64,000 bases of DNA from an uncultured Clostridium sp. (GTDB lineage: Bacteria; Bacillota; Clostridia; TANB77; CAG-508): assembly GCA_947648905.1 (NCBI GenBank), contig CANSPP010000004.1, positions 760-64,759 of the forward strand, written 5' to 3'. Position numbers and translations under genes: made by a program. Below, in pieces: positions 1,596 to 26,754 of the stretch (positions within the stretch are counted from its first letter, which is position 1; the number at the start of each line of letters is the position of its first letter). The notes under the pieces are model-generated. The model made no database searches, was not told where the DNA came from, and was given only the letters and a program-made list of their open reading frames with translations.

Positions 1596-1745
1596 AAAAA
1601 GCCTTTGCATTTTTGTGCAAAGGCTGTATTTTCTTTTTTGTTTTATCAGCCAAAGCACTTTGCTTTGTCGGTATTAGCACCTTATTTTTCAATAGGTTGC
1701 TGTGGAGTCATTGAGCCGATTCTCTCGTCCACTCTTGATAACAAT
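1596..1745 (-). ncRNA. SAM-I (S-box) riboswitch with intrinsic terminator, leader of metK
   Basis: minus-strand reads GTTATCAAGAGTGGACGAGAGAATCGGCTCAATGACTCCACAGCAACC...AAGGTGCTAATACCGACAAAG...GGCTGATAAAA = S-box consensus blocks; terminator hairpin GCCTTTGCA/TGCAAAGGC (1598-1626) + U-run. Confidence 0.9.
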
Positions 1746-1768: not shown

Positions 1769-2257
1769 TTATAATGTCAATATTTTGTCGTTTTTTATAC
1801 TGTTTTGTACATCTATTACTCTTTGATTTTCTGATCCTTTCCATTTTAAAGTAGGATTACTCAATTCATCTACATATTGTCCATCTACTAATACGTCAAT
1901 ATATTGTAGTGCTTCTTTGTCTTTTAGTTCTTTGTCAAATTGAAATCCTGACCATACCCATAGGTCTTTATTTGGAAATTTTTCTTTGAATTTTTTTGCA
2001 AGTTCTGTTGTTCCTTCTATGTTTTTTGGATGCATTGGTTCTCCACCTAGGATTGATAATCCTTCTATTACATTATTATCACATAGTTCAAGAACTCTAT
2101 CTATTGTTTCTTCATTAAATTCTTTTCCGCCATTAAAGTCGTGAGTATCTTTGTTGAAGCAGTTTTTACAATTGAATGTACATCCTTGCATAAATATTGA
2201 TACTCTTACTCCTGGACCATTTGCTATGTCCATTTTTCTAATTTTGTTGTATCTCAT
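1769..2257 (-). CDS. nrdG: anaerobic ribonucleoside-triphosphate reductase activating protein (radical SAM)
   Basis: MRYNKIRKMDIANGPGVRVSIFMQGCTFNCKNCFN (CxxxCxxC); start moved to ATG 2257 with RBS AAAGGAA; directly downstream of nrdD. Confidence 0.9.
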   Translation of the reverse strand: MRYNKIRKMDIANGPGVRVSIFMQGCTFNCKNCFNKDTHDFNGGKEFNEETIDRVLELCDNNVIEGLSILGGEPMHPKNIEGTTELAKKFKEKFPNKDLWVWSGFQFDKELKDKEALQYIDVLVDGQYVDELSNPTLKWKGSENQRVIDVQNSIKNDKILTL

Positions 2258-2304
2258 TTTGTTTTCCTTTCTAATTCGAAATAGAATAGTTATATTGCTA
2301 GGCA

Positions 2305-2365
2305 AAGTTAGTTTGAAAGGCAAAGGAGCATACGTGGTGTATGTGACTGCGTTTCAAACTAACTT
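2305..2365. repeat. perfect 14-bp inverted repeat (AAGTTAGTTTGAAA / TTTCAAACTAACTT) with structured 33-nt loop between nrdD and nrdG
   Basis: seen directly; inner CATAC/GTATG sub-hairpin; plus strand of loop carries AAAGGAG-N5-GTG. Confidence 0.6.
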
Positions 2366-2397: not shown

Positions 2398-4557
2398 TTA
2401 CTCGTCGTCCTTATTATCTAAATGAATAACTCTTTCTTTAATTTCTTGAGTTCTACCCTTATTCCAGAAATTACTTCCAATATAACCACAAGTTCTTCTA
2501 GCTACATTCAATGTATCGTGATTTCTATTTCCACAGTTTGGGCAATACCATTCTAAGTCTTCATCAATTAAAATTTCTCCTGTATATCCACATTCTTGGC
2601 AATAATCTGATTTTGTATTTAATTCTGCATACATAATGTTGTCATAAATGAATTTGATTACTTGTAATACAGCAGGTAAATTGTTTTGTAAATTTGATGT
2701 TTCTACATATGATATAGCTCCACCTGGGCTTAATTCTTGGAATTCACTTTCTAATTTTAGTTTAGAAAATGCGTCTATTTCTTCAAATACAGGTACGTGA
2801 TATGAGTTTGTTATATAATCTCTATCTGTTATCCCTTCAATTTCTCCAAATCTGTCTTTTAAGCATTTTGCAAATTTATATGTTGTTGATTCTATTGGTG
2901 TTCCATACACACTGTAGTCCATATTTTCTTTTTCTTTCCATTCTTTACATTTAGCATTCATTCTCTTCATTACTTCGATTGCTAAGTCTTTTCCTTTTCC
3001 ATTGTCTGTATGGCTGTGTCCTGTCATATATTTTACACATTCATATAGTCCTGCATATCCAAGTGATATTGTTGAATATCCGCCATGTAATAAATCGTGT
3101 ATTTTTGCTCCTTTTGGTAATCTTGCTAATGCTCCATATTGCCATAATATTGGTGCTACGTCACTTGTTGCTTTTGCTAGTCTTTCGTGTCTTAGTTGAA
3201 GTGCTTGGTGACATAGTTCTAGTCTTTCGTCATATATTTTCCAGAATTTATCTAAGTCTTTTCCTGATGATAATGCAACATCTACTAAGTTTATTGTTAC
3301 AACACCTTGGTTAAATCTTCCATAATATTTTGGTTTGTTTGTTTCTGGGTCAACATATGGTGTTAAGAATGAACGACATCCCATACATGGGTAGCAGTTT
3401 CCATTTCCATTTTTGTCTTTTTTAAGTTCTTTCATTTTCTTTTCTGATATGTAATCTGGTACCATTCTTTTTGCTGTACATTTTGCTGCAAGTTCTGTTA
3501 AATACCAATATTTGCTGTTTTCGTGTATATTATCTTCTTCTAATACATATAGTAGTTTTGGGAATGCTGGTGTAATGTATACTCCTTTTTCGTTTTTCAT
3601 TCCTACTATTCTTTGCTCTAAAAATTCTTTTATTATTAATGCTAATTCTTCTTTATAGTCTTCTGTTTCTCCTAAATAGAAACATACACTTAGGAATGGA
3701 GATTGTCCATTTGTTGTTGTCATTGAGTTTATTTGATATTGGAATGTTTGAACTCCATCTTTTATTTCTTTTAGTAAATCTTCTTTTGCAAATTTCTCGC
3801 ATTGTTCTTTACTTAGTTTTCTAGCTTCATATTTCTTTAAATATATATTGTAACTATCTCTTACGAATGGGGCTAAATGTGTCATTGTTACTGTTGCACC
3901 ACCATATTGGCTAGATGTTACTGCTGTTATTATTTGTGTTGCAATTGTCATTGCTGTTAAGAATTTATGTGGTTTTTCTATCATTACACCATTTATGTTT
4001 GTTCCATTTTGTAACATATCTTCTAGGTTTATTAAATCACAATTATGTAGTGCGTTTTGTGCAAAATAATCTGCATCGTGGAAGTGGATTATTCCTTCGT
4101 CATGTGCTTTTACAATGTTTTCTGGTAATAAAAATCTTCTTGTTATGTCTGTACTTGTTATTCCTGCTAAATAATCTCTTTGTGTTGTTACTACTTTTGC
4201 ATTTTTGTTAGAATTTTCATTGTTCCAATATTCACTTTCACCTTCAATTAATTCTTTTATTGATTGGTCTGTTGTGTTTGCTTTTCTAACTAGTGCTCTT
4301 GTGTATCTATATGTTATATATTTTTTTGATAGTTGATATTTTCCCTTTTCCATCAATTTTTCTTCTATTATGTCTTGTATGTCTTCTACTAATATTCTTG
4401 GTTTTTGTAACTCTTCAATATAGTTTGTTATTTCTTTTATATCTTCTAGTGTTGCTCTTTCTTTTCTTGGTACCTCATTATTTGCTTTTTGAATTGCTAC
4501 TTTGATTTTTTCCCTATTATAATCAACTATTGTTCCATCTCTTTTTATGATTTTCAT
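2398..4557 (-). CDS. nrdD: anaerobic ribonucleoside-triphosphate reductase (class III RNR), copy 1
   Basis: ATP-cone MKIIKRDGTIVDYNREKIKVAIQKAN, C-terminal Zn ribbon CPNCGN and glycyl-radical motif RRTCGYIG; start at ATG 4557 (RBS AAAGGGGA). Confidence 0.95.
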   Translation of the reverse strand: MKIIKRDGTIVDYNREKIKVAIQKANNEVPRKERATLEDIKEITNYIEELQKPRILVEDIQDIIEEKLMEKGKYQLSKKYITYRYTRALVRKANTTDQSIKELIEGESEYWNNENSNKNAKVVTTQRDYLAGITSTDITRRFLLPENIVKAHDEGIIHFHDADYFAQNALHNCDLINLEDMLQNGTNINGVMIEKPHKFLTAMTIATQIITAVTSSQYGGATVTMTHLAPFVRDSYNIYLKKYEARKLSKEQCEKFAKEDLLKEIKDGVQTFQYQINSMTTTNGQSPFLSVCFYLGETEDYKEELALIIKEFLEQRIVGMKNEKGVYITPAFPKLLYVLEEDNIHENSKYWYLTELAAKCTAKRMVPDYISEKKMKELKKDKNGNGNCYPCMGCRSFLTPYVDPETNKPKYYGRFNQGVVTINLVDVALSSGKDLDKFWKIYDERLELCHQALQLRHERLAKATSDVAPILWQYGALARLPKGAKIHDLLHGGYSTISLGYAGLYECVKYMTGHSHTDNGKGKDLAIEVMKRMNAKCKEWKEKENMDYSVYGTPIESTTYKFAKCLKDRFGEIEGITDRDYITNSYHVPVFEEIDAFSKLKLESEFQELSPGGAISYVETSNLQNNLPAVLQVIKFIYDNIMYAELNTKSDYCQECGYTGEILIDEDLEWYCPNCGNRNHDTLNVARRTCGYIGSNFWNKGRTQEIKERVIHLDNKDDE

Positions 4558-4615
4558 TTCATTTTCCCCTTTCGTTTTTTCTGCTATCATTATATCTCTA
4601 TTTTTATTATTAACT

Positions 4616-13265: not shown

Positions 13266-14601
13266 ATGGAGAAAAATATGAAAGATTTTTTTATTATATT
13301 AATTATGAAAATACTAAACATTATTCTAAAAATCTGTAGAAAAAAAGGTGGTAACTTCTTAGGAAAAATAGCATTTGACTGGGACCCTAATATATTCAAA
13401 TACTTCAAAGTAACTTGTCCTGTTATCGCAGTTACTGCAACAAACGGAAAAACTATGACAAATAATGCAATTGGCTATGTTTTTAAAACAGCTGGAAAAA
13501 AAGTAATTAGCAATACAGAAGGAAACAATATGGAAACTGGCATACTTTCAACTTTATTAAAAAGCTGTAGTTTAACAGGAAAAATCAAAGCTGACTATTT
13601 AGTTTTTGAAGTTGACGAAGGCTATGTACCTGTTGTATTTAAAGACTTAAGACTAGACACTTTAGTTATACTAGATTTCTTCCGTGACCAATTAGATAGA
13701 AATGGAGAGGTTGAATCTTTAATATTAAAAATCAATGAATTCTTAAAAACTTACACTGGCAACCTTGTATTAAACAATGACGACCCCAATGTTGCAAGAC
13801 TTCGGACAAGCCAATCCAGATAATCACAACGTTTATTATTTCAGTGTAGAAAAATACGAATATGCAACAAAAGAACTAAAAGAAGCAGGAGAAGGAAAAT
13901 TCTGTCCATTCTGTAATACACGTATAGAATATGAATATTATCAATATTCTCATATTGGTAAATTTAAATGTCCTAATTGTAATTATGGAGATAATGAAAT
14001 TTATAAATTGGCAACAAATGTTGATTTAAAAAATAGAACATTTAGTGTTGATGATGTAACCTATAAAATTAGATTTAACAGTATCTATAACATTTATAAT
14101 TTTATTGCTGTTATATCTTGTGTAAGTCTATATTCCATAGAAACAGAAATAGTACAAAAAGCTTTATCTACATTTATTTTAAATAATGGTAGATTAGAAG
14201 AATTAGAAATAAAAGGCGTTCCTACAATAATAAATTTGGCAAAAAACCCAACTGGATGTAATGTAAGCCTTCGTATTTTAAATGAAGATGATGACAAAAA
14301 AGAATTGTTATTTGTTTTGAATGATAATTTAGCAGATGGTCACGATGTTTCTTGGATTTGGGATATTAATTTCGATGATTTAAATAATGTTTCAAGAATT
14401 GTAACTGCTGGAACAAGAGCTTATGATATTGCAATTAGAATTAAAACTTCTGGATTTGATGCTAGCAAAATTGAACCTTTTCTAAATTTAAAGGAAGCTG
14501 TTGATAATTTCTACAAAACTGATGTTAAAAAATATGTTATTGCAAATTATACTTCTCTTCAACCTACTAGAAAAGAAATTTTAGCTTTAAATTCTAAATA
14601 A
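13266..14601 (+). CDS. murT: lipid II isoglutamine synthase Mur-ligase subunit MurT; reading frame interrupted at 13803 (surplus C before GGA)
   Basis: AVTATNGKTMT Mur ligase P-loop, ...NNDDPNVARL then frame +1 continues GQANPDNHNVYYF, Zn ribbon CPFCN...CPNC and DUF1727; matches S. aureus MurT DDPFVSRLKIASDTIVYY. Confidence 0.85.
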
Positions 14602-14631
14602 TGTCCAAAAAGGAAACGTCCCCAATTGGAC
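14602..14631. repeat. dispersed palindromic repeat (inverse orientation)
   Basis: tgtccaaaaaggaaacgtccccaattggaca. Confidence 0.7.
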
Positions 14632-14649
14632 AAAAGGAGATTATAAATT

Positions 14650-15396
14650 ATGAAAGAATTAAAAATATTATACCTATACCCAGATATATTAGAACTATAT
14701 GGAGATTTTGGAAATATACAAGTTTTAAAATATAGATTAGAAAAACGTGGAATACAAGCCACTATTGTACCATATTCAATTGGCGATGTAGCCCCTGACT
14801 TTTCAAGTTTCGACTTAGTATTTGCAGGTGGTGGTGCTGACCAAGAGCAAGGTATTTTATCAGAAGATTTAATTAAGTATAAAGAAAGCATAAAAGAAGC
14901 TGTTGATAATGGTGTGTTCTTCTTGCTGATTTGTGGTGCTTATCAGCTATTTGGAAAATATTATAAAGGAGTTGAAGGAAATATTATTCCTGGCTTAGAA
15001 GTTTTTGATTATTATACAGAAGCTATAAATGATAGAAAACAAAGATGTATTGGTAATGTTGTAATAAATAGCAATTTAAATGGTAAAGAGACTAAAATTA
15101 TTGGTTTTGAAAATCATGGCGGACAAACTTTTGATGTTGATACCTCTTTTGGCGATGTACTTTTTGGTAATGGTAATAAGTTTGGAGATACTAAAGAAGG
15201 TTTCTTTTTAGAAAATGTTATTGCAACTTATTTACATGGACCTCTTCTTTCTAAAAATCCAGAACTTGCTGATTACATTATAAAGTATTGTTTAGATAGA
15301 AAATATGATGAAAATGTCGTTTTAGAGCCACTAGATGACATTTTTGAAAATCTTTGTAGAGAGCAATTGTTAGAAAGGTTCTTAAACCAAAAATAA
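14650..15396 (+). CDS. gatD: lipid II isoglutamine synthase glutaminase subunit GatD (CobB/CobQ-like GATase)
   Basis: 248 aa, MKELKILYLYPDILELYGDFGN..., partner of murT. Confidence 0.85.
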   Translation: MKELKILYLYPDILELYGDFGNIQVLKYRLEKRGIQATIVPYSIGDVAPDFSSFDLVFAGGGADQEQGILSEDLIKYKESIKEAVDNGVFFLLICGAYQLFGKYYKGVEGNIIPGLEVFDYYTEAINDRKQRCIGNVVINSNLNGKETKIIGFENHGGQTFDVDTSFGDVLFGNGNKFGDTKEGFFLENVIATYLHGPLLSKNPELADYIIKYCLDRKYDENVVLEPLDDIFENLCREQLLERFLNQK

Positions 15397-15439
15397 AAAA
15401 TTACCAGAAGGGAGAACCTTTCTGGTAATTTTTTGTTTT

Positions 15440-16147
15440 TCAATAGAATACAACCACATTCTGCAGCTGAATTACTGGCACTTCGGCAATTTTGTTGTTC
15501 TTAGCAAAAGTAAATGATACAAATCCGCCAAGCAGGTGCTTATCCCTATCTACAATAATCGGCTTTTGAAAGTTCTTATATTTAGAATAGAATTTTGCTA
15601 CCTTTTCATACTTGGTCTGTTTGTGACTTGTTTTAGTATCTTTTCGTTCAGACTTATACTTTACTCCTTCTTTTCCACCTCTAATTTTATCTGTCCTCAT
15701 TCCTCTAACCCATATATCGTCTTCTTCGCTATACAAGTGAGAGAATTTTGTGTCATACCGTAGAGCTTCATTTTGAGCCATACATTCTTTTGCAAACTGA
15801 GAACGTTCTTTTTGTCCTTCAATTTCCAAATATTTTGAATGCTGTTCTGGCATAAGGTTTGCTTTACGTTCATTGCATTCTTTGCAATATGGAATAAGAT
15901 TGTTTGTAATGTCTGGTCCACCATAATCTTGTGGAATAATATGGTCAACTGTCATCATATTACTCTTAGTTTTCTGGTTGCAGCATTTACAAATATTTTT
16001 TCCATATATTGCATAAGTCAAATCTTTCATAAGAGATTTAAAACCTACATCAAATCTCATATATAAGATTCCATCTTCGATAAAAACTACCCTTTTCTGG
16101 CCTCTTTCATCGTACCGAGTAAATTGTTCTGGTAATATAATATTCAT
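15440..16147 (-). CDS. HNH endonuclease domain protein (foreign codon usage)
   Basis: CKCCNQKTKSNMMTVDHIIPQDYGGPDITNNLIPYCKECNERK HNH motif; GC-richer codons incl. two in-frame CGG Arg codons (15758-15760, 16115-16117). Confidence 0.8.
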   Translation of the reverse strand: MNIILPEQFTRYDERGQKRVVFIEDGILYMRFDVGFKSLMKDLTYAIYGKNICKCCNQKTKSNMMTVDHIIPQDYGGPDITNNLIPYCKECNERKANLMPEQHSKYLEIEGQKERSQFAKECMAQNEALRYDTKFSHLYSEEDDIWVRGMRTDKIRGGKEGVKYKSERKDTKTSHKQTKYEKVAKFYSKYKNFQKPIIVDRDKHLLGGFVSFTFAKNNKIAEVPVIQLQNVVVFY

Positions 16148-16235
16148 TATATTTACCTCCTATCTATTATGTTTACATTATATAATGTATCTCATATATC
16201 TGTCAATAAAAATGTCGAAATATGTCAACTTTTAT

Positions 16236-18362
16236 TTACAAATGCATTACTCTTTGCTTTATTTCTTTTGTTTTTCCAACATTCCAGAAATTCTCTCCTA
16301 AATATCCGCAGGTCCTTCTTACTACTGTCATTTTATTATGGTCTTTATTTCCACAATTTGGGCATTCCCACTCATTATCTTTGTTTATTATTATTTCGCC
16401 ATCAAATCCGCACTTATGGCAATAATCTGACTTTGTATTAAATTCAGCATATTGAATATTGTCATAAATAAATTGTACTACTGTTTCTAATGCTTTTATG
16501 TTTTTGTTCATATTTGGTATTTCAACATATGAGATAGAACCACCTGTTGAGATTTTTTGGAATTCACTTTCAAATTCTAATTTTGCAAATGCATCGATTT
16601 CTTCTCTTACATCTACGTGATATGAATTTGTATAATATCCTTTATCTGTTATGTCTTTTATTGTTCCAAATTTTTCTTTATCAATTCTTGCAAATCTGTA
16701 ACATAAGCTCTCTGCTGGTGTTCCATATAGCGCAAATCCTATGTTTGTTTCCTTTTTCCATTTTTGTGTTGTTTCTTTTAAATAATTCATAACTTTAAGT
16801 GCAAACTCGCGTCCTTCTTCTGTTGTGTGAGATACACCTTTTACTAGTTTTGTAAGCTCATATATTCCAATATATCCAAGTGACATTGTAGAATATCCGC
16901 CATATAATAACTTGTCTATTTTTTCACCTTTTTTCAATCTTGCTAATGCTCCATATTGCCAGTGAATTGGGCTTATATCAGAACTTGTTCCAAGTAGTGC
17001 ATAATGTCTACACATTAATGCTTCTTTGCAAAGTTCCAATCTTTCATCTAATAGTTTCCAGAATTTTTCTTCGTCACCATCTGCTATAATTCCTATTTGT
17101 GGTAAGTTGATGCTTACTACACCTTGATTAAATCTTCCTTCAAATTTGTATTTTCCATTTTCGTCTTTCCAAGGTGATAAGAAACTTCTACATCCCATTG
17201 GGCTAAATACGTTTCCTTCGTAGTTTTCACGCATTTTTTTAGCTGATATATAATCTGGATACATTCTTTTTGCTGAACATTTTACTGCAAGTTTTGTTAG
17301 GTAGTCATATTCCCCACCTTTTAAATTGTTGAATTCATCTAATACATATACAAGCTTTGGAAATGCTGGTGTTACATATACTCCTACCTCGTTTTTTACT
17401 CCTTCATATCTTTGATTAAGGATTTCTTCTATTATCATTGCATTTTCTTTGATATATGGGTCGTCTTTTTCTAAATGTAAGAATAATGTTACAAATGGAG
17501 ATTGCCCATTTGTTGTCATTAGTGTATTTATTTGATATTGCATTGTTTGTATTCCTGCTTTTAATTCTGCTTTTACTCTTTCTTCCACTAATTCCTCTAT
17601 CATTTCTTTTGATAGTTGTTTTCCGTGTTTTTCTTCAAGCTCTTTTTTATATTTATTATAGCTTACTCTTAGGTATTTTCCTAAATGTATCATATCTATT
17701 GATTGTCCGCCATATTGGTTACTTGCCACTGTTGCAATTATTTGTGTTGTTACTGTACAAGCCACTTGGAAACTTTTTGGACTTTCTATCATTTTCCCAT
17801 ACATTACAGTTCCATTGTCTAGCATATCACCTATGTTTACTAAACAGCAATTAAATATTGGTTGTATAAAATAATCTGCATCGTGGAAATGTAAAATTCC
17901 GTCTTCATGTGCTTTTGATATCTTTTCTGGTAGTAGCATTCTTTTTGTTAAATCTCTTGAAACTTCTCCTGCTATGTAATCTCTTTGTGTTGATGCTAAC
18001 ATTGTGTTTTTGTTTGAGTTTTCTTCTGCTAGTTCTTTGTTTTCGTTTCTTAAAAGGCCTAATATAGATTCGTCTGTTGTGTTTTGTTTTCTTACTAATG
18101 CTCTTGTGTATCTATATACTATGTATCTTTTTGATAGTTCATATCTTTGTATTTCCATTAGTTTTTGTTCTATTATGTCTTGTATGTCTTCTACTAATAT
18201 TCTTTTTTTGCCCATTTCTTCAATATAGTTTATTATTTCTTTTATTTCTTCTTTTGTGGCTCTCTCTTTTGGTCTTACTTCTTGGTTTGCTTTTTCGATT
18301 GCTATTTTGATTTTTTCTCTATCAAAATCTACTACTTGTCCATTTCTTTTTATAACTTTCAT
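16236..18362 (-). CDS. nrdD: anaerobic ribonucleoside-triphosphate reductase (class III RNR), copy 2
   Basis: 708 aa, ~60% identical to copy 1, ATP-cone MKVIKRNGQVVDFDREKIKIAIEKAN, RRTCGYLG glycyl radical motif, CPNCGN. Confidence 0.95.
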   Translation of the reverse strand: MKVIKRNGQVVDFDREKIKIAIEKANQEVRPKERATKEEIKEIINYIEEMGKKRILVEDIQDIIEQKLMEIQRYELSKRYIVYRYTRALVRKQNTTDESILGLLRNENKELAEENSNKNTMLASTQRDYIAGEVSRDLTKRMLLPEKISKAHEDGILHFHDADYFIQPIFNCCLVNIGDMLDNGTVMYGKMIESPKSFQVACTVTTQIIATVASNQYGGQSIDMIHLGKYLRVSYNKYKKELEEKHGKQLSKEMIEELVEERVKAELKAGIQTMQYQINTLMTTNGQSPFVTLFLHLEKDDPYIKENAMIIEEILNQRYEGVKNEVGVYVTPAFPKLVYVLDEFNNLKGGEYDYLTKLAVKCSAKRMYPDYISAKKMRENYEGNVFSPMGCRSFLSPWKDENGKYKFEGRFNQGVVSINLPQIGIIADGDEEKFWKLLDERLELCKEALMCRHYALLGTSSDISPIHWQYGALARLKKGEKIDKLLYGGYSTMSLGYIGIYELTKLVKGVSHTTEEGREFALKVMNYLKETTQKWKKETNIGFALYGTPAESLCYRFARIDKEKFGTIKDITDKGYYTNSYHVDVREEIDAFAKLEFESEFQKISTGGSISYVEIPNMNKNIKALETVVQFIYDNIQYAEFNTKSDYCHKCGFDGEIIINKDNEWECPNCGNKDHNKMTVVRRTCGYLGENFWNVGKTKEIKQRVMHL

Positions 18363-18422: not shown

Positions 18423-18438
18423 TGTTGCAAAAGCAACA
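18423..18438. promoter_or_regulatory. palindromic operator TGTTGCAAAAGCAACA ~60 bp upstream of nrdD copy 2
   Basis: identical 16-mer at 24658-24673; 5-N6-5 (CRP/FNR-like geometry). Confidence 0.55.
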
Positions 18439-18584
18439 AGCAAACTTATTTTTTTCATAAGTTTGCTTGTTTGTATGTTTTGATGTTTTATTACATTTTT
18501 ATTACAAATTTAATTCTTAAATTATAGTATTAACACTAAAAAACAAAATTTTATTCATAGCATTCTTTTATTCTCATAATACTA

Positions 18585-19751
18585 TTAAAATTTAATTCTA
18601 TTAAATTCATCATACAGTTCAATTAGATAATCACATACTTCATTGTTTCTTATAATTACATTTTCCGCGATTTTACTGCAGTAATTACAATTCAAACAAT
18701 TTCCTGTACAATGATCATTTTTAAAAAAATTAATAAATCCATCTAATTTTTGATTATCAATATATATATGTCTAGGATATCTTCTTTCACATCCCAAACC
18801 TCTTACTGTACGTATTTTTTCAACTATTTCATTTTTAGACATATTCTTTACTTTATTATCATTTATTGTTAGTTCTTCTTTAGAATTGCTCCAACCGTGC
18901 CCTTGAATTAAATCCAATAAATTTCCATTATATTTTCTTTCACTATACGCTTTTACTCTTTTTATAATCTCATCAGTTGGAAAATCTCTTTCAGTAATTT
19001 TAAAATGTTCTATCCCAATATTTTCATATTCTTTAATATCTTCTGGTCTAATCCAAGGCGACTTTATGTATTCCTCTAAATTCTTTAATTCATATTCTTG
19101 ACATTTGTATAAACACCAATCTGCATAATGTTCTTTATCCTTATTCATTGAATTTGATGCATGTGATAAAGCTGCTGTATGTGTATGAATATATGGACAA
19201 TTTTTTAAACAACTATTTGTCATAAGTAATTCTATTTTCGCTTTTTTTAGATTATCAACCATATATTTTAAAGTTTTAAAGTCTCTATTAATTTTCACAA
19301 AATCTACACAAACATAATCTGCTCCCATTTCTTCCCAAAATTTAGCTTTTTCAAAACTATCTATACAGGCAAATGTTGAAATTCTAACTGTAAAACAGTC
19401 ATAATATTTTTTTATTATTTGTAACAAAAAAGGATTTGTTACCGTTAAAGCATTAACGCCTATTTCTTTTAAGTAATCTAGAAATTTTCTAACATTTTGT
19501 TGCCATTCTTCACTTTGCTCCTTATTAGCAAGACAAGCTCCATTTAATAAATAATTAAATTTTATATTATTTTCTCTAACTTTCTTTACATGCCTCTCGA
19601 GCATAGTTTTATCTATATTTTTTAATGTATTTGATGGTCTTCCTCCCCCAACATAATCTTGTTGTAATTTTCCGTAAACTTCATATACTGGATAATCTTT
19701 TAACTTATCTATTAGTTCGTCATCAAAATTAGTAGCTACTGATAATTTCAT
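18585..19751 (-). CDS. uncharacterized protein, weak peptidase-U32-like TIM-barrel features, Cys-rich C-terminus (CTGNCLNCNYC)
   Basis: start at ATG 19751 (MKLSVATNF...) with RBS AAAGGAG; ...VTNPFLLQIIKKYYDCFTVRISTFACIDSFEKAKFWEEMGADYVCV resembles U32 core. Confidence 0.4.
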   Translation of the reverse strand: MKLSVATNFDDELIDKLKDYPVYEVYGKLQQDYVGGGRPSNTLKNIDKTMLERHVKKVRENNIKFNYLLNGACLANKEQSEEWQQNVRKFLDYLKEIGVNALTVTNPFLLQIIKKYYDCFTVRISTFACIDSFEKAKFWEEMGADYVCVDFVKINRDFKTLKYMVDNLKKAKIELLMTNSCLKNCPYIHTHTAALSHASNSMNKDKEHYADWCLYKCQEYELKNLEEYIKSPWIRPEDIKEYENIGIEHFKITERDFPTDEIIKRVKAYSERKYNGNLLDLIQGHGWSNSKEELTINDNKVKNMSKNEIVEKIRTVRGLGCERRYPRHIYIDNQKLDGFINFFKNDHCTGNCLNCNYCSKIAENVIIRNNEVCDYLIELYDEFNRIKF

Positions 19752-19764
19752 AATTATCACTCCT

Positions 19765-20811
19765 TTATAATATTTTCTTACATTTCTTTATAAAATTTCT
19801 ATTTGTTTTTCTATCTTGAACTGCAATTCTAAAATGAATATTCTTTTCTTCATCTTCTATAATCATTAACGAAATATCGTTTTTATTGAATTTTTCTATT
19901 ATCTCATAACTTAATTTAGTTTTAGAAAACAAAATATTTGATTCACTTGGATAAAATTCTATATTAAGTTTTCTTAGGTTTTTTTCTATATTCTTACGTT
20001 CTTTCATTATTAATTTTATATTCTTTTTGTAATTATTACTTAAAAGGATTTTTTTAGCATACTCACATGAAATCCCAGAAACTTCATTAACAGTTATATT
20101 TTCTTCATATATTTTCTTAAACTTTCTTGAGCAAATCATATATCCTATTCTTAAACCAGCAATTCCATAAGCCTTTGATAATGATTTTATAACTATAATA
20201 TTGTCTGGCATCTCTATTTTAGACAAACTGCTTTTATTGGAAAATTCAATTGCTGACTCGTCTACAATAACATATACATTTACATTTTCAGCAATATATT
20301 TTATCTCTTCGTTACTCATAAGCATTCCTGTTGGATTATTTGGATTGCATATATAAATCATTTTTGTATCCGCGTCAACACTTTTTATTATGCCTTCTGC
20401 ACTCACTTTTACGTTTTCTTTCATATATACTCTTTTAGTACTTCCGTTCATTGCAGTAACTGCATATTCTGCTTGATTAAATGTCAAAAACGGTGTGACT
20501 AGATTTCCTGAATTTTTAAACAAAATTTTTATTATATTTTGAAGAATGCCATTTGCACCTGCTCCTATAATAATTTCTTTTGTTTTAATATCTTGAATTG
20601 TCTTAATTGTCTCTCTTAATTCTTTAACTATATAATGTGATGGATACTCAGAAAGATTTGAATAATTAATTGTAAATTTTGGATATTTATATAGATACTT
20701 ACCAGATAATGTCATATCAATCTGTTTTGTTTCATAGTTAGTATAATCATCTAAAAAATTGCGCTTAGATATTTGATATGCCTTATTTCTTAAGCCTGAT
20801 TGTATATACAT
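19765..20811 (-). CDS. PLP-dependent aminotransferase, class I/II (HisC/CobD-like)
   Basis: 348 aa, SLSKAYGIAGLRIGYMI PLP-lysine region. Confidence 0.75.
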   Translation of the reverse strand: MYIQSGLRNKAYQISKRNFLDDYTNYETKQIDMTLSGKYLYKYPKFTINYSNLSEYPSHYIVKELRETIKTIQDIKTKEIIIGAGANGILQNIIKILFKNSGNLVTPFLTFNQAEYAVTAMNGSTKRVYMKENVKVSAEGIIKSVDADTKMIYICNPNNPTGMLMSNEEIKYIAENVNVYVIVDESAIEFSNKSSLSKIEMPDNIIVIKSLSKAYGIAGLRIGYMICSRKFKKIYEENITVNEVSGISCEYAKKILLSNNYKKNIKLIMKERKNIEKNLRKLNIEFYPSESNILFSKTKLSYEIIEKFNKNDISLMIIEDEEKNIHFRIAVQDRKTNRNFIKKCKKIL

Positions 20812-22501
20812 TTCTTTTACCTATCCCTACATCTGTTATGTGTTCATCAACATTTTTCTCTATATAAAATCCATTTTCTTTAACTATTTGGTTTATTTCT
20901 TCTTTTGATAGCAATACCATAGGTGGTCTATTTTCAACTTCATACACACCCTTTCCTAGATATTTTAAATCTTCTGTAATTATATCATTTGTAAATACTG
21001 ATAAAATTACATATCCATTCTTTTTTAATATCCTATTAAATTCCTTAATAGTATTTATAAATTCTATTTTAGTAGTTGCATTATGAATAACTCCAATTGA
21101 CAATATAATATCGAAAATTTCAGAAGATGTAGGTATATTGTCCATATTGGCTTGTACAAATTCAATATTTTCTTTTTCCAAAGAAAATGCCATTTCTTTA
21201 TATTTATCAACCGCTAAAACATTATATCCGTGGCTATTTAAATATCTTGAATATCTTCCTCCTCCACATCCGATATCTATTACTTTATCTATTTTTCTTT
21301 TATTACTTATTTCTTCTATTTCTTTTACTATATATTGAGAAACTGGTTTCTCTGTAAATTTTTTTGCGACTTCTTCATCTTGCCAAAATATTGTTTTTTC
21401 CTCTTTATTTTTTACTGTATAAGTACTATTGCAAATACTGGTTTCAATTACATTCATTCCTACTTTTTGCATTGTATCTTTACAAATTTCCTTTTGCTCT
21501 TCATTTTTTACTATTGCCATAAAAGCTGGTCCTACTGATGATAATGTTAAAAATTCACAGCAATTATTCTCATACAATTTTCTTAGTTCATTAGCTTTTT
21601 CTATTGTCTTTTCATATACAAATGAGCAGTTTTCAATACTTCCCATATTAAATCTATAATCAAATACAATATCTGCTAACTCTCTAATATTTCCATTGCA
21701 AAGTCCTGGTAATGCTTTATGTAATAAATTATATGCAATTTTTTCTGCATATTTATCACCTGTTCTCTTAAACTTCCACAAATTTTCTTCTTCTAATTTC
21801 ATTAATTCTTCTGCACTTTTAGGATTAAAATCATTTGGAATTGCTATTAATACTTTTGCATCATATTTCAATTTTGCTATTGTTGTTGCTTTGCCTGCAA
21901 TAATTATAATTCCTTCTTCAGTTAATCCGTTTGTAGCGCCTCCACCAATACATTGAACCATCTTCAGTTCTTCTTCATTTTCATCTGATATTTCTTCTCC
22001 ATGATTACTAGCTAAGAATTTTATCAAATCTTTGTTAGCTATAGGACATCCATATAATTCATTAATAGCTACCGCTACTGCCGTTATTGTAGAACTACTA
22101 GATCCAAATCCACAGTGCTTTATAACTTTAGAGGAATCTACATCTATTTTTAAAGACGGATTTACATTTAATATTTTAGTCATAATTCTATATGCATGCT
22201 TTATTAGTACTTTTCTTTGTGTTCTATCTGAAATCTCAAGTAACCCACCTGCTTCAGAAGTAATTTCTATTCCTACTTTAATTTTTATATTTAATGAAAT
22301 TACTACTTCACCTGGTGTAAATATTAAATCGTTATTATAGCAAACAGCAGCTGGATTTATGGCCATTGCGTCCATCCTACATGGATATTCTATATTTATC
22401 TTGTTGTACTTCAACTTTAAATTTTCTTCTATTGTATGAGGATATTTACTAAAAATATATCCTGCTTTAAATGTTGGAAATCTATCTACCACTTTTACCA
22501 A
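20783..22501 (-). CDS. fusion protein: GHMP-kinase-like domain (beta-RFAP-synthase/PduX-like) + class I SAM-dependent methyltransferase
   Basis: N-terminal HCGFGSSSSTITAVAVAINE GHMP motif; C-terminal VIDIGCGGGRYSRYL SAM motif I; start uncertain (non-ATG, GTG 22492 has RBS). Confidence 0.6.
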   Translation of the reverse strand: MVKVVDRFPTFKAGYIFSKYPHTIEENLKLKYNKINIEYPCRMDAMAINPAAVCYNNDLIFTPGEVVISLNIKIKVGIEITSEAGGLLEISDRTQRKVLIKHAYRIMTKILNVNPSLKIDVDSSKVIKHCGFGSSSSTITAVAVAINELYGCPIANKDLIKFLASNHGEEISDENEEELKMVQCIGGGATNGLTEEGIIIIAGKATTIAKLKYDAKVLIAIPNDFNPKSAEELMKLEEENLWKFKRTGDKYAEKIAYNLLHKALPGLCNGNIRELADIVFDYRFNMGSIENCSFVYEKTIEKANELRKLYENNCCEFLTLSSVGPAFMAIVKNEEQKEICKDTMQKVGMNVIETSICNSTYTVKNKEEKTIFWQDEEVAKKFTEKPVSQYIVKEIEEISNKRKIDKVIDIGCGGGRYSRYLNSHGYNVLAVDKYKEMAFSLEKENIEFVQANMDNIPTSSEIFDIILSIGVIHNATTKIEFINTIKEFNRILKKNGYVILSVFTNDIITEDLKYLGKGVYEVENRPPMVLLSKEEINQIVKENGFYIEKNVDEHITDVGIGKRNVYTIRLKK

Positions 22502-22544
22502 CTCCTTTTATTTGCTAATTCTTTGTTAAATTTTTCTGCAAACT

Positions 22545-23144
22545 TTAACTATCAATGTTATTTCCTTCGATTACATTTTCTCTATACCACTTTGCAAATT
22601 GGTCTTTTGCATCTCCCCAAAAAGTTGATTCATATTCATAATCTTCTTCTCGTAACTCGCTTAAAGTTTTACTTTCTCCATCTGGTATATAAAATTTGTC
22701 ATGCCATCTTCCGCGAGTTCCTTTCGGTTCAAATGCTATCTTTCCTGTTCCACCTCCTGAAAAAACAATAGGTTCATTATTTGGTTCACAATATGCAAAA
22801 CAGTGTTCTATTCTTGCTTTTCTATTTTTTTCATTTTTAAATAGTTCCAAAAACTTTTCTACCCCTATCTGTTTATCAAAATACGCATTATATGGCCCTG
22901 GCAATCCTCCTAAAGCTTCTATGTATAATCCTGTATCTGATTTTAGAACTGAACATCCTAATTTATTTGCTGCATATTTTGCACTAAATGCAACTACTTC
23001 TGCACAAGTTTTAGCTTGTGTCTCTAAAATTTCAAAATCTGGATTTACAATTTCTATGTTAAATCCATATTTTTTTGAAAAAAACTCATTAGCTTCTTCA
23101 ACTTTATGCTGATTTGTTGTTAAGTAAATTAATTTCCTTTTCAT
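22545..23144 (-). CDS. non-canonical purine NTP pyrophosphatase (Ham1/RdgB/ITPase family)
   Basis: 199 aa, LTTNQHKVEEAN ... Ham1 motifs. Confidence 0.8.
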   Translation of the reverse strand: MKRKLIYLTTNQHKVEEANEFFSKKYGFNIEIVNPDFEILETQAKTCAEVVAFSAKYAANKLGCSVLKSDTGLYIEALGGLPGPYNAYFDKQIGVEKFLELFKNEKNRKARIEHCFAYCEPNNEPIVFSGGGTGKIAFEPKGTRGRWHDKFYIPDGESKTLSELREEDYEYESTFWGDAKDQFAKWYRENVIEGNNIDS

Positions 23145-24817: not shown

Positions 24818-26596
24818 TTAATTCAGCCATTCTTTTACAATTCTGTTGAAGTTTTCCATTGTCTCTTTATTATATTCATACTCATGGTTTTCAACTTTCT
24901 TAAATATTTCTAAAGAATAATATGCTTTTTCATCAACATAATCTTCATTGTTAATTCCTATATATTTTTTATCTTCTTCTGAAAATAAGTCTTCTATTGA
25001 TAAATTGATATTTTCATTTTCCCTGTTTGTTCCATCAATAAACTTTATATCATTAAAATCAACTAATAGTTTATTAGTTAAGATTTTATATTGTCTTCTT
25101 CCTTCTGTATCTTGATCAATAAGAATTTTATATTTATATCCCCAACCAATTAAAATTGAAATAATATTATGGATATTAGTTACACTAGTAGATGGAATAA
25201 TATTGTATTCTTTATTATATTGTTTTTGCATTAGAAAAGCCTTTAAGTAATTGTAATCAGAAATACCTTCTGTAATTATATTTACTTTTTTACTATCTAT
25301 AGCTGTGAAACTATATCTCATATTCATTCCTATCGCAGTTAAAATTGGAGTAATTGTTTCTTTTTTAGAAGTCATTTTATGCGGTAGTGAATAATATTTA
25401 TTTCCAATATTACTATTGCCCAACTTATCTTTTATAACTATTCGAGTTCTATATAATTTATCTTGATAAATCATAGTTGGTAACTGAGTAGTATATACAA
25501 TTTGGTTATCTTTTGAAGTAAAATCTTCAAATAGATTTAATATTTCTTTTTGAGCATTAACATGTAAATATACCCCAGGTTCATCTAATAAAATAAAATA
25601 ATTTTCTATATCATATTTTTGAGTTTTAGCTAGGAGTTGTATGTACATATTTAAATACCATTTTAATCCATTACTTCTTTCACTTAAGTTTAAATATTTA
25701 CTATTAGTTTTAACCACAAAATTTAATGATTCTGTATCGAAGTTAACTCTAAGAGTTACATCTTCTTGCTTATAAAATTTGTTAAATTCTTTTATAATTG
25801 TTCCAATTTTGTTATTTATTTCTTCTACAAAATTATATTTATCATCATCTTCAGATAATTTCCAATATCCCATTAAACCTTCCAAATCCATCCCAATAGT
25901 TTTTAATAAATATTTTAGCATTTGTTTTGATTGTGTATTATCAGCTAAATATTTTCGAGTATATTTTGTTCTAAGCTCAATATTATCTAAAAGAATAAAT
26001 TGTGGAAATAATGAATGAATATTTATTAAATATTCCCTGCATTCTTTCAAATACTGAATAAATTCTTCATAACTCGAATTTCCTTCCAGCAACAATATTA
26101 TGTTATCTATATAAGTGTAATTTATAAACACTTTTGTTTCAGCATTGTTGATCATTTTGATAATATTATTGAATTGATTTTTCTTATTTTCATCATTCAA
26201 ATAAATATTTTTATTTAATTCATTCATCTTTTTTCTATTTTTTTGAAAGTTCTTATTATTACTTATAATTTCTGACAAACCACCATCAATATCTAAATCA
26301 TACTGGTCATTAATTGTAATAATAGTTTCTTTTGTTGATTTATAAATATTTTTTTCGCTCCTATATGGAACTAGAACTAATGATACTAATGGTTTCTTCA
26401 TATTGTTCTTGTTATTATTTTTAAAATAGTCAATGTCATTTATTCCTGATAAATCTAGTTTTCCAATTGCTTGTATTAAATTACTTTTTCCAGATTCATT
26501 TTTTCCAATAATTGTATTGATGTTTTCTAAATCTATCCTGTTATTTTCCTCTGCAAATGATTTGAAATTTTGTATTTTAACTGATTTTACTTTCAT
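24818..26596 (-). CDS. OLD-family nuclease: N-terminal ABC/AAA_15-type ATPase + C-terminal TOPRIM (candidate antiphage defence, single-gene class)
   Basis: Walker A GKNESGKSN, Walker B ILLDEPGVYLH, TOPRIM VNIITEGISDYNYL ... ILIDQDTEG; start at ATG 26596 (MKVKSVKIQNFKSF) with RBS AAAGGAG; extremely AT-rich. Confidence 0.8.
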   Translation of the reverse strand: MKVKSVKIQNFKSFAEENNRIDLENINTIIGKNESGKSNLIQAIGKLDLSGINDIDYFKNNNKNNMKKPLVSLVLVPYRSEKNIYKSTKETIITINDQYDLDIDGGLSEIISNNKNFQKNRKKMNELNKNIYLNDENKKNQFNNIIKMINNAETKVFINYTYIDNIILLLEGNSSYEEFIQYLKECREYLINIHSLFPQFILLDNIELRTKYTRKYLADNTQSKQMLKYLLKTIGMDLEGLMGYWKLSEDDDKYNFVEEINNKIGTIIKEFNKFYKQEDVTLRVNFDTESLNFVVKTNSKYLNLSERSNGLKWYLNMYIQLLAKTQKYDIENYFILLDEPGVYLHVNAQKEILNLFEDFTSKDNQIVYTTQLPTMIYQDKLYRTRIVIKDKLGNSNIGNKYYSLPHKMTSKKETITPILTAIGMNMRYSFTAIDSKKVNIITEGISDYNYLKAFLMQKQYNKEYNIIPSTSVTNIHNIISILIGWGYKYKILIDQDTEGRRQYKILTNKLLVDFNDIKFIDGTNRENENINLSIEDLFSEEDKKYIGINNEDYVDEKAYYSLEIFKKVENHEYEYNKETMENFNRIVKEWLN

Positions 26597-26754
26597 AAAT
26601 TGCTCCTTTATTTTTCTATTATTATTCCTCCGCATTATTATTTTCTTCTAATTTTTCTCTTTTTCGTCTTACAATAATTTTTCTTTATCTAATCTACTGA
26701 TATCTAAATATTTATGATCTAGTACATCTATTTTACTTATAACTGATTTTCCTA

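What the first reader, a model, noticed from the sequence alone, without database searches (positions are those of the whole stretch)
15440..18362. Second nrdD paralog lacking its own nrdG, followed by an HNH endonuclease of foreign composition
Two class III RNR genes (718 and 708 aa, ~60% identical) lie 12 kb apart. Only copy 1 has an adjacent nrdG. Copy 2 is followed 88 bp downstream by a free-standing HNH endonuclease with GC-richer codons. HNH homing endonucleases commonly sit next to nrd genes in phages, which suggests a mobile origin for the nrdD2-HNH module.
Basis: partly seen in the sequence, partly recalled or inferred. Interest (0 to 1): 0.5.

Follow-up and report, generated by a model that had tools for sequence, protein, structure and literature searches.

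The report
Solitary HNH nuclease cassette beside nrdD2
A second, fully functional-looking anaerobic ribonucleotide reductase gene is followed by a small self-promoted HNH nuclease gene. The nuclease is a patchily distributed, fast-evolving accessory cassette of uncultured gut Clostridia, not a partner of the reductase and not a recent phage import.

Summary
NrdD1 (2398-4590, with nrdG at 1769-2323) and NrdD2 (16236-18362, no nrdG) are 57% identical. An HNH ORF (15440-16147) starts 88 bp after nrdD2, and its GC3 is the highest of 56 window ORFs.

- nrdD2 is a core, syntenic, strongly constrained gene (dN/dS about 0.02).
- It lacks an activase gene because nrdG2, still present between nrdD2 and the HNH gene in a sister clade, was lost in this lineage.
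- The HNH gene is an independent unit with a perfect sigma-A-type promoter, an RBS, and a terminator shared with gatD.
- Its product combines a Cas9/Gme-type HNH domain with a degenerate ParB/sulfiredoxin-like fold.
- The family has about 85-260 clusters, all in uncultured gut Clostridia, with no full-length phage or plasmid relatives.

The gene sits in a slot between the nrd stop codon and the terminator. In relatives that slot is empty, holds other cargo, or holds one or two divergent HNH copies. Other family members occupy unrelated slots between core genes. All copies at the nrdD2 slot are intact and under purifying selection.

The most likely reading is a selfish, homing-type nuclease cassette spread by homologous recombination (about 0.4). 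A stand-alone defence nuclease is the main rival (about 0.3). Interest is modest.

The parts
16236..18362 (-). nrdD2, class III (anaerobic) ribonucleoside-triphosphate reductase paralogue, 708 aa. Carries an ATP-cone, the NRDD core, a C-terminal Cys4 zinc ribbon and the glycyl-radical motif RRTCGYLG.
   Evidence: Pfam/NCBIfam. 57% identical to NrdD1. Aligns end to end with solved NrdD 9d3x, E 2e-155. 97-98% identical in relatives, dN/dS about 0.02.
16177..16206 (-). The HNH gene's own sigma-70/sigma-A-type promoter, in the 88-bp spacer: TTGACA, 18 nt, TATAAT, 12 of 12 matches. The -35 overlaps the direct repeats TTGACATATTT/CGACATTTTTA/TTGACA.
   Evidence: Promoter scan. The spacer is about 90% conserved in type A and type B loci. 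Family members at other loci also have TTGAC/TATAAT-like boxes.
16156..16160 (-). Ribosome-binding site GGAGG, 8 nt before the ATG at 16147.
   Evidence: Read from the sequence. AGGAGG is conserved upstream of family members.
15440..16147 (-). Free-standing nuclease gene, 235 aa. It has an N-terminal beta/alpha region, an HNH domain, a variable helical/disordered middle and a C-terminal ParB/sulfiredoxin-like region.
15833..15991 (-). HNH (beta-beta-alpha-metal) catalytic core, aa 53-105. Zinc cysteines C53, C56, C88, C91; D68-H69; N83; N92. All are invariant in the family.
   Evidence: Alignment A1. Profile match to the Gme HNH nicking endonuclease 4h9d, E 1e-13, with all motif residues aligned.
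15443..15613 (-). C-terminal ParB/Srx-like segment, aa 179-235: Y..Y...KPIIVD....LLGG......VPVI.L.NV.VFY. There is no arginine at the ParB GxxR / Srx GCHR position.
15393..15436 (.). Bidirectional intrinsic terminator hairpin shared by the HNH gene (and nrdD2 read-through) and the convergent gatD.
   Evidence: Terminator scan and inverted repeat I1. In HNH-less relatives this hairpin directly follows the nrdD2 or nrdG2 stop.
14650..15396 (+). gatD (CobQ-like glutamine amidotransferase), the convergent core-gene neighbour that closes the slot.
   Evidence: Pfam GATase_3. Synteny in all relatives.
2398..4590 (-). nrdD1, first class III RNR paralogue (probable start at MKIIK, 4557).
1769..2323 (-). 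nrdG1, radical-SAM activase. It is the only nrdG in the window and the presumed activator of both NrdD proteins (inferred).
   Evidence: NCBIfam TIGR02491 NrdG, 189 bits. NrdG2 of the sister clade is 42-50% identical to it.

Best explanation
Two separate things lie side by side.

(1) nrdD2 is a vertically inherited, functional core paralogue of the anaerobic ribonucleotide reductase. The ancestral unit was nrdD2-nrdG2. The window's lineage lost nrdG2, so NrdD2 is presumably activated in trans by NrdG1, encoded about 14 kb away (inferred).

(2) The gene 88 bp downstream is an autonomous cassette, consisting of its own consensus promoter, an RBS and the ORF. It is lodged between the nrd stop codon and the terminator shared with gatD. 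It encodes a small nuclease made of a zinc-bound HNH catalytic core, most similar to nicking HNH enzymes and the Cas9/IscB HNH domain, and a degenerate ParB/sulfiredoxin-like fold. That fold has lost the nucleotide-binding arginine, so it probably serves in DNA binding or dimerisation (inferred).

The cassette behaves as a selfish accessory element of a clade of uncultured gut Clostridia. It is gained, lost, duplicated in tandem and exchanged between strains by homologous recombination through the conserved flanks. Sister lineages of the family sit in other slots between core genes.

The most likely mechanism is homing-like (inferred, not shown). The enzyme nicks or cuts cassette-less alleles at or near the conserved neighbouring gene, and repair from a cassette-bearing copy carries the gene in, as with free-standing HNH endonucleases beside phage nrd genes. 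It has no role in ribonucleotide reduction.
For: Shown:
- Core synteny and strong constraint of nrdD2.
- nrdG2 lies between nrdD2 and the HNH gene in L028, L029, L034, L038, L040 and L054. It is absent from the window clade, L023, L046, L059 and L060.
- Perfect promoter, RBS and shared terminator.
- Identity to type-B relatives is about 90% in nrdD2 and the spacer, falls to 45-70% exactly across the ORF, and returns to 83-86% in gatD.
- HNH dS against type-B loci is 1.4-1.9 while the flanks give 0.45-0.95. Two divergent intact copies stand in tandem in L024.
- Scarless presence/absence of a 1,233-bp HNH+GNAT cassette between strains whose flanks are 93-98% identical, inserted precisely between the nrdG2 stop and the terminator.
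- Empty slots in L036, L059 and L060-62, and other cargo in L037, L049 and L050.
- The cassette is 100% identical at nucleotide level in strains whose flanks are 94-98% identical.
- Family members occur in unrelated slots: UMPH-1|ATPase, fabG|spoIIP, rpmF|deaminase, murJ|ispE, and a frameshifted copy by pyrG.
- nrdD2-slot HNHs never form an exclusive clade, 0 of 60 bootstraps.
- GC3 excess in 10 of 11 loci.
- Catalytic residues are invariant and dN/dS is 0.08-0.27.
- Fold and closest solved relatives.

Precedent: the free-standing HNH endonuclease MobE between T4 nrdA and nrdB (PMC2790892).
Against: - No cleavage site or target is known.
- At deep levels the HNH tree follows the host clades, so inheritance is largely vertical.
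- Every copy at the nrdD2 slot is intact and under purifying selection, as low as 0.08-0.11 in the sister clade. A fixed homing gene would be expected to decay, so this fits a host-useful gene better.
- The identical-cassette result is conditioned on identical protein, and these species are visibly mosaic from recombination. It is suggestive only.
- The same slot takes unrelated cargo, so it may simply be a permissive hot spot.
- No empty allele was sampled inside the window's own close clade.
Confidence: 0.42

Rival explanations
1. Stand-alone defence nuclease of a type IV-restriction-like kind. The HNH domain would cut foreign (for example modified) DNA, and the ParB/Srx-like domain would act as sensor or DNA clamp. 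The gene would be kept by host-level selection and diversified by an arms race. The position beside nrdD2 would be incidental, a permissive accessory slot.
For: - Long-term retention of intact copies with dN/dS 0.08-0.27.
- Deep allelic lineages and tandem paralogues.
- Patchy distribution.
- The same slot holds other accessory genes, including a PD-(D/E)XK Rpn-type nuclease and a GNAT.
- OLD-family nuclease genes lie nearby in the window (24818-26635) and in L064-66.
- A ParB/Srx-type fold joined to a His-Me finger is the domain pair of GmrSD-type enzymes (PMC4619093).
- PADLOC gives domain-level hits to PDC-M01B and PtuB HNH, E 2e-7 to 1e-3.
Against: - PADLOC matches cover only the HNH motif, and no known system is recovered.
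- The gene is solitary between housekeeping genes, with no integrase or defence island around it. Each sub-lineage is faithful to one slot, unlike typical defence cargo.
- The nucleotide-binding arginine of the ParB/Srx fold is missing.
- The family is confined to one group of uncultured Clostridia.
Confidence: 0.3
2. One reading: a recently acquired, phage-derived homing endonuclease that arrived together with nrdD2 as one mobile module.
For: HNH endonucleases do sit beside nrd genes in phages (PMC2790892, PMC2988022). The ORF has the highest GC3 in the window.
Against: - nrdD2 is syntenic and core with native composition.
- No full-length relatives in 50,697 phage records, IMG/VR, BFVD or plasmids.
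- The HNH is at this locus in lineages down to 36% identity, and its dS against type-A relatives equals that of the flanks.
- The GC3 excess is family-wide.
Confidence: 0.04
3. A dedicated functional partner of NrdD2, for example a replacement for the lost NrdG2 or a factor needed for RNR function or regulation.
For: Immediate adjacency, probable read-through co-transcription (no terminator between the genes), and constant pairing throughout the window clade.
Against: - It coexists with nrdG2 in the sister clade.
- nrdD2 exists with neither nrdG2 nor the HNH gene in L059 and L060-62.
- Family members lie at loci unrelated to nrd.
- It has no radical-SAM CxxxCxxC motif; its four cysteines are the HNH zinc site.
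Confidence: 0.04
4. A relic: a once-mobile nuclease gene now fixed and drifting, with no present activity of any kind.
For: In the window clade it evolves faster than its neighbours (50-80% against 84-98% protein identity). The middle third is poorly conserved and predicted disordered. One frameshifted copy exists in L033.
Against: - All roughly 20 distinct alleles seen at this slot are full length.
- The catalytic and zinc residues are invariant down to 36% identity.
- dN/dS is well below 1.
- A perfect promoter and RBS are conserved.
Confidence: 0.08

Closest known systems
Free-standing HNH homing endonucleases beside phage nrd genes (T4 MobE between nrdA and nrdB; PMC2790892, PMC2988022)
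   Same: HNH catalytic family. Free-standing ORF in an intergenic slot next to a highly conserved ribonucleotide reductase gene. Presence/absence among relatives, with spread expected through recombination of the flanks.
   Different: It lies in a bacterial core chromosome, not a phage. There is no sequence similarity beyond the HNH motif. The second domain is ParB/Srx-like rather than a known homing-endonuclease DNA-binding module. Descent is long and mostly vertical under purifying selection. Cleavage and homing are untested.
Gme HNH nicking endonuclease (PDB 4h9d) and the Cas9/IscB HNH domain
   Different: These are either a single domain (Gme) or embedded in large RNA-guided enzymes. NCBIfam IscB and Cas9 scores are far below their cut-offs (36 against 175). 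The 88-bp spacer leaves no room for a guide RNA, and there is no Rfam hit.
ParB-CTPase-fold/HNH fusion proteins noted as novel and uncharacterised in PMC12704722
   Same: Combination of a ParB/Srx-type fold with an HNH domain in bacterial proteins.
   Different: Here the ParB-like part is too degenerate for Pfam ParBc, lacks the GxxR arginine, and the whole protein is only about 215-240 aa. Whether it belongs to the fusions counted in that survey was not tested.
GmrSD/BrxU/SspE-type type IV restriction enzymes (PMC4619093)
   Same: Domain pair of a ParB/Srx-like fold plus a His-Me-finger nuclease. Stand-alone, with no methylase partner.
   Different: About 2.5 times smaller, with the opposite domain order and no DGQQR-type NTPase motif. 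No Pfam DUF262/DUF1524 or PADLOC GmrSD/BrxU hits.
Duplicated class III RNR operons (nrdDG)
   Same: NrdD2 has every hallmark of a formate-type NrdD, and its sister-clade orthologues keep their own NrdG2.
   Different: In this lineage the second activase gene has been lost, leaving one nrdG for two nrdD genes.

Membership tests
Class III ribonucleotide reductase NrdD (for nrdD2) | NRDD catalytic core with an ATP-cone, scoring above the curated family cut-offs | tested here: met
   Pfam NRDD 639 bits. NCBIfam NF006732 950 bits (cut-off 657) and TIGR02487 513 bits (cut-off 326).
Class III ribonucleotide reductase NrdD (for nrdD2) | C-terminal glycyl-radical motif and Cys4 zinc ribbon | tested here: met
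   RRTCGYLG and CHKCG...CPNCG align with the corresponding residues of solved NrdD 9d3x. Pfam Gly_radical E 2e-22.
Class III ribonucleotide reductase NrdD (for nrdD2) | A cognate radical-SAM activase NrdG encoded alongside | tested here: not met
   There is no nrdG next to nrdD2 in the window. nrdG2 is present in the sister clade. Activation in trans by NrdG1 (1769-2323) is inferred and cannot be tested here.
HNH (His-Me finger) endonuclease superfamily | HNH profile match above the gathering score, with the catalytic D-H, N, N and zinc cysteines | tested here: met
   PF01844 41.3 bits (cut-off 21.4) and PF14279 42.6 bits (cut-off 27.5). C53, C56, D68, H69, N83, C88, C91 and N92 are invariant and align with 4h9d.
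Homing endonuclease gene (functional class) | Presence/absence polymorphism at one precise site between otherwise homologous alleles | tested here: met
   L036 against L038/L040/L054. L059 and L060-62 have an empty slot. No empty allele was sampled within the window's closest clade.
Homing endonuclease gene (functional class) | Horizontal spread: element genealogy younger than, or incongruent with, its flanks | tested here: inconclusive
   The cassette is 100% identical in flanks that are 94-98% identical, and the nrdD2-slot copies are not monophyletic. However, deep topology follows the host clades and one search is conditioned on identical protein.
Homing endonuclease gene (functional class) | Site-specific cleavage of the element-less allele, followed by gene conversion | not testable with these tools
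   Needs biochemistry or genetics.
ParB/Srx (ParB-CTPase) fold proteins | ParB-N/sulfiredoxin fold | tested here: met
ParB/Srx (ParB-CTPase) fold proteins | Nucleotide-binding GxxR / GCHR arginine motif and a ParBc profile match | tested here: not met
   The equivalent position reads LLGG[F/Y] or LLDGF with no arginine. There is no Pfam ParBc hit.
GmrSD/BrxU type IV restriction enzymes | DUF262 NTPase domain plus DUF1524 nuclease domain | tested here: not met
   No such Pfam or PADLOC hits.
Phage-borne HNH endonucleases | Full-length relatives in phage genomes or viral contigs | tested here: not met
   Phage tblastn gives E 1e-6 or weaker, covers at most 55% of the query and is centred on the HNH domain. 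IMG/VR scan found none. BFVD gave only single-domain matches, TM at most 0.29. PHROG hits cover the HNH region only.

The most novel reading that the evidence does not exclude
This could be a family of free-standing homing endonucleases that live in bacterial core chromosomes rather than in phages, introns or inteins. They would use a degenerate ParB/sulfiredoxin fold as the DNA-recognition or dimerisation module. Each sub-lineage would be tied to one slot beside a conserved housekeeping gene (nrdD/nrdG, pyrG, a P-type ATPase, rpmF and others). Spread among strains of uncultured gut Clostridia would go by DNA uptake and break-induced gene conversion, leaving a lasting GC3 excess through biased gene conversion.
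Probability: 0.3. Interest if true: 0.6.

Novelty: new variant of a known kind. Interest (0 to 1): 0.35.

Why it matters
For annotation, the result separates two things that look like one module. The first is a normal duplicated anaerobic RNR whose second activase gene was lost, so one NrdG probably serves two NrdD proteins. The second is an unrelated nuclease cassette.

The nuclease belongs to an uncharacterised family of about 215-240 aa that joins an HNH domain to a ParB/Srx-like fold. The family is found only in uncultured gut Clostridia. If it proves to be a homing element, it would show that free-standing homing endonucleases persist and move inside bacterial core genomes. It would also give a compact new DNA-recognition scaffold. 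If it is a defence nuclease, it would be a minimal relative in architecture of the GmrSD-type enzymes. In either case it marks a recombination-active slot that is useful for strain typing in these organisms.

Tried and rejected
- PADLOC, PHROGs and NCBIfam on the HNH protein gave only HNH-domain-level hits and no named system.
- The phage collection, IMG/VR, BFVD and plasmids gave no full-length relative.
- The afdb50 fold library was not available.
- RNA-guided (IscB-like) nuclease idea: rejected. The NCBIfam score is far below the cut-off, the spacer is only 88 bp and contains the promoter, and there is no Rfam hit.
- NrdG-substitute idea: rejected on distribution and the lack of a radical-SAM motif.
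- A 10-nt repeat (ATTACCAGAA) at the ORF's 5' end and in the terminator: judged to be chance, because it is simply the conserved terminator stem in relatives. No target-site duplication was seen at the L036/L038 junction.
- One context look-up went to a 1.1-kb contig.
Whether empty alleles exist in that species therefore remains unknown.
- The neighbours of family members include several nucleotide-metabolism genes (nrdD, UMPH-1, a cytidine/dCMP-type deaminase, pyrG). I considered a functional link with the ParB-like nucleotide fold and set it aside, because the other slots are unrelated and the nucleotide-binding motif is missing.
Full report
**1. The observation**

The window is about 29% G+C.
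- ORF 16236-18362 (-) encodes a 708-aa class III ribonucleotide reductase with an ATP-cone, the NRDD core and a glycyl-radical domain. Pfam NRDD gives E 9e-192, and NCBIfam NF006732 scores 950 bits against a cut-off of 657.
- It aligns end to end with a solved NrdD (9d3x, E 2e-155), including the zinc-ribbon cysteines and the RRTCGYLG glycyl-radical motif.
- A first copy lies at 2398-4590 (-) and is followed by nrdG at 1769-2323 (TIGR02491, 189 bits). The two NrdD proteins are 57% identical.
- No nrdG flanks the second copy.
- 88 bp after the nrdD2 stop, ORF 15440-16147 (-) encodes a 235-aa protein with an HNH domain at residues 53-105 (Pfam HNH_5 E 6e-11, HNH E 2e-10).
- Its third-position G+C is 0.280, the highest of 56 window ORFs (mean 0.166, sd 0.036, z 3.2). 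It also holds two of the five CGG codons counted in 37 ORFs.

**2. Anatomy of the HNH unit**

- The 88-bp spacer contains a perfect TTGACA-18-TATAAT promoter at 16206-16177 and a GGAGG ribosome-binding site at 16160-16156.
- There is no terminator between nrdD2 and the HNH gene.
- A 20-pair bidirectional hairpin at 15393-15436 ends both this gene and the convergent gatD.
- An AlphaFold2 model built on 12 homologues is confident (pLDDT 86.7, pTM 0.83). Residues 161-176 are predicted disordered.
- By sequence, the closest solved protein is the Gme HNH nicking endonuclease (4h9d, E 1e-13), with every zinc and catalytic residue aligned.
- Those residues (C53, C56, D68, H69, N83, C88, C91, N92) are invariant in the family.
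- The C-terminal motif KPIIVD...LLGG...VPVI resembles the ParB/Srx core but has no arginine at the nucleotide-binding position, and Pfam ParBc does not match.
- The three folded parts are the best conserved (mean pairwise identity 0.58-0.64). The middle is the most variable (0.39-0.46).

**3. Relatives and their contexts**

- The word-indexed search of 5.8 billion proteins found only 12 clusters.
- A profile search of 1.84 billion representatives found 85 clusters at E<=1e-30 and 262 at E<=1e-10. Of the 150 listed, most are 210-240 aa and match the whole profile.
- All named sources are uncultured Clostridia from gut metagenomes.
- Phage genomes, IMG/VR contigs, predicted viral structures and plasmids gave only HNH-motif or single-domain matches.
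- In genomes whose HNH is 80%, 63%, 53%, 50% and even 36% identical to the window's, the gene sits in the same place. It lies after a 708-aa NrdD and before gatD/murT, inside the conserved run relA-lactamase-hisS-crp-nrdD2-[HNH]-gatD-murT-rsmF-suf.
- nrdD2 is thus part of the core chromosome. It is 97-98% identical across the window clade, with dN/dS about 0.02.

**4. Why nrdD2 has no nrdG**

- In a sister clade (NrdD2 83-86% identical), an nrdG 42-50% identical to the window's NrdG1 lies between nrdD2 and the HNH gene, or between nrdD2 and gatD.
- An NrdD2 tree separates a clade with nrdG2 from a clade without it. The clade without it comprises the window clade, L023, L046 and L059. L060 also lacks it.
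- The simplest reading is an old duplication of a whole nrdDG operon, followed by loss of nrdG2 in some lineages.
- The strong constraint on NrdD2 implies that it is still activated, presumably by NrdG1. This step is inferred.

**5. The HNH gene is a variable cassette in a fixed slot**

I anchored a search on the 3' end of nrdD2 and another on GatD, neither of which selects for the HNH gene. The space between the nrd stop codon and the shared terminator was found in several states:
- empty (L036, L059, L060-62);
- holding a 126-aa unknown ORF (L037);
- holding pilin-like genes (L049);
- holding a PD-(D/E)XK Rpn-type gene (L050);
- holding an HNH gene plus a GNAT gene (L038, L040, L054);
- holding one HNH gene;
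- holding two divergent HNH genes in tandem (L024).

L036 and L038 are 93-98% identical in their flanks. They differ by a scarless 1,233-bp insertion placed exactly between the nrdG2 stop and the terminator hairpin.

In the window clade, nucleotide identity to type-B genomes runs as follows:
- about 90% through nrdD2 and the promoter spacer;
- 45-70% exactly across the ORF;
- 83-86% again in gatD.

Synonymous divergence tells the same story:
- Against type-A relatives, HNH dS (0.47-0.52) matches the flanks.
- Against the other lineages it is 1.4-1.9, while the flanks give 0.45-0.95.
- The two L024 copies differ by dS 2.8.

Lineages A, A2 and B form one clade in 60 of 60 bootstraps. They are therefore old tandem paralogues, or old alleles that predate the radiation of the host clade.

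Within a species, the cassette can be 100% identical at the nucleotide level while adjacent nrdD2 and gatD segments are 94-98% identical. The second comparison was conditioned on identical protein, and these genomes are visibly mosaic, so this is suggestive rather than diagnostic.

**6. The family is not tied to nrd**

Other members lie between:
- a pyrimidine-nucleotidase-like gene and a P-type ATPase, in a variant recorded in 215 blocks of the contig index;
- fabG and spoIIP;
- rpmF and a cytidine-deaminase-family gene;
- a murJ-like gene and ispE;
- and, as a frameshifted copy, next to pyrG.

None of the cassettes examined is directly flanked by an integrase, transposase or phage genes; one locus, L067, has a Bro-N domain gene about 5 kb away. 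All have their own promoter-like boxes and a strong RBS. HNH proteins from the nrdD2 slot of the two host clades never group exclusively (0 of 60 bootstraps). So either the slot was colonised more than once, or members moved between slots. The GC3 excess over neighbouring genes is seen in 10 of 11 loci, including distant lineages. It is therefore a property of the family, not a sign of recent import.

**7. Selection**

All copies seen at the nrdD2 slot are full length. dN/dS is 0.17-0.27 in the window clade and 0.08-0.11 in the sister clade. The protein is therefore functional.

**8. Mechanism**

What is shown:
- The gene is an autonomous, expressed-looking nuclease gene.
- It has an intact His-Me active site.
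- It lies in a slot where DNA is gained, lost, duplicated and exchanged through conserved flanks.
- It is unrelated to RNR chemistry.

What is inferred:
- I favour a homing-type selfish endonuclease at about 0.4. The enzyme would nick or cut cassette-less alleles near the conserved neighbour and be copied in by repair. This is the way free-standing HNH genes such as T4 mobE behave beside nrdA/nrdB (PMC2790892, PMC2988022).
- Points in favour are slot fidelity, position next to very conserved genes, scarless presence/absence, identical cassettes in diverged backgrounds, tandem pile-up, and a persistent GC3 excess that biased gene conversion could explain.
- The main rival, at about 0.3, is a stand-alone defence nuclease. 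It is supported by long-term purifying selection on fixed copies, by a domain pair recalling GmrSD-type enzymes (PMC4619093), and by the accessory and nuclease genes that share the slot and neighbourhood.
- A recent phage import, a dedicated NrdD2 partner and a dead relic are each contradicted by the data above.

**9. Comparison with what is known, and novelty**

- Duplicated nrdD genes are ordinary.
- The HNH core is a clear member of the HNH superfamily.
- The ParB/Srx resemblance is at fold level only, and the defining nucleotide-binding motif is absent.
- ParB-fold/HNH fusions were recently listed as novel and uncharacterised (PMC12704722). Whether this family is among them was not tested.
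- I rate the finding as a new variant of a known kind (free-standing HNH nuclease genes), of modest interest.

**10. Seen in passing**

The most interesting side observation is a conserved +1 frame change in murT at CTT-CGG-A. The others are listed separately.

Noticed in passing
window 13266-14601 (+), shift site about 13800-13806: murT is read in two overlapping frames: 13266-13823 (Mur ligase domain) and 13777-14601 (MurT_C). Relatives L023, L057 and L059 have a single 436-aa ORF reading ...NVARLGKSNPDN.... The +1 change falls at CTT-CGG-A, where CGG is the rarest Arg codon here (5 of 14,565 codons). The string AGACTTCGGACA is identical in L007, L012, L020 and L024 despite dS of 0.5-0.9. 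It looks like a Ty1-type (CUU-AGG-C-like) programmed +1 frameshift, or else a conserved split gene.
   Followed up: partly
window 14601-14650; L007 6751-8367, L012 6774-8396, L020 8782-10410: In window-clade relatives MurT_C and GatD are fused into one 538-542-aa ORF. In the window they are separate, with a stop at 14601 and the GatD ATG at 14650.
   Followed up: no
window 18507-22570: A 4,064-bp insertion directly upstream of the nrdD2 leader, absent from L026. It carries a U32-peptidase-like gene (18585-19760), a class I/II aminotransferase (19765-20811) and a GHMP-kinase/SAM-methyltransferase fusion (20783-22501). G+C is low, 0.25-0.28.
   Followed up: partly
window 24818-26635 (-): An OLD-family nuclease gene (AAA_15/AAA_21 ATPase plus TOPRIM), 605 aa, G+C 0.228, lies between hisS and crp. 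In relatives hisS and crp are adjacent, so this is a strain-specific, defence-like insertion. A similar OLD-like gene with a DUF3800 gene lies two genes from the HNH family member in L064-L066.
   Followed up: partly
window 16201-16230 (-): Direct repeats TTGACATATTT / CGACATTTTTA / TTGACA overlap the -35 box of the HNH promoter. They are conserved in both type A and type B loci and could be an operator.
   Followed up: no
window 18435-18471: A perfect 15-bp palindrome (AACAAGCAAACTTAT, 7 nt, ATAAGTTTGCTTGTT) lies 73-109 nt upstream of the nrdD2 start, inside the leader that is conserved in relatives. It could be an operator or attenuator. A Crp/Fnr-family regulator gene is the usual upstream neighbour.
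   Followed up: no
window 1640-1744 (-): A SAM riboswitch (RF00162, 81.9 bits) lies between nrdG1 and metK (404-1546). It is the only Rfam hit in the window.
   Followed up: no
L038 2933-4101; L040 3596-4764; L054 8990-9649 and adjacent: In one sister species the HNH gene travels with a 160-aa GNAT acetyltransferase as a single 1.2-kb cassette. The cassette is 100% identical between strains whose flanks differ by 2-6%.
   Followed up: partly
L024 10001-10693 and 10887-11603: Two intact, divergent HNH genes (57% identical, dS 2.8) stand in tandem, each with a copy of the promoter spacer, between nrdD2 and gatD.
   Followed up: yes
L033 9968-10650; L064-L068; L070-L072: Several neighbours of family members are nucleotide-metabolism genes: nrdD/nrdG, a UMPH-1-type pyrimidine nucleotidase, a cytidine/dCMP-deaminase-family gene and pyrG. 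This may only reflect a preference for slots beside very conserved genes. The copy next to pyrG in L033 is frameshifted.
   Followed up: no
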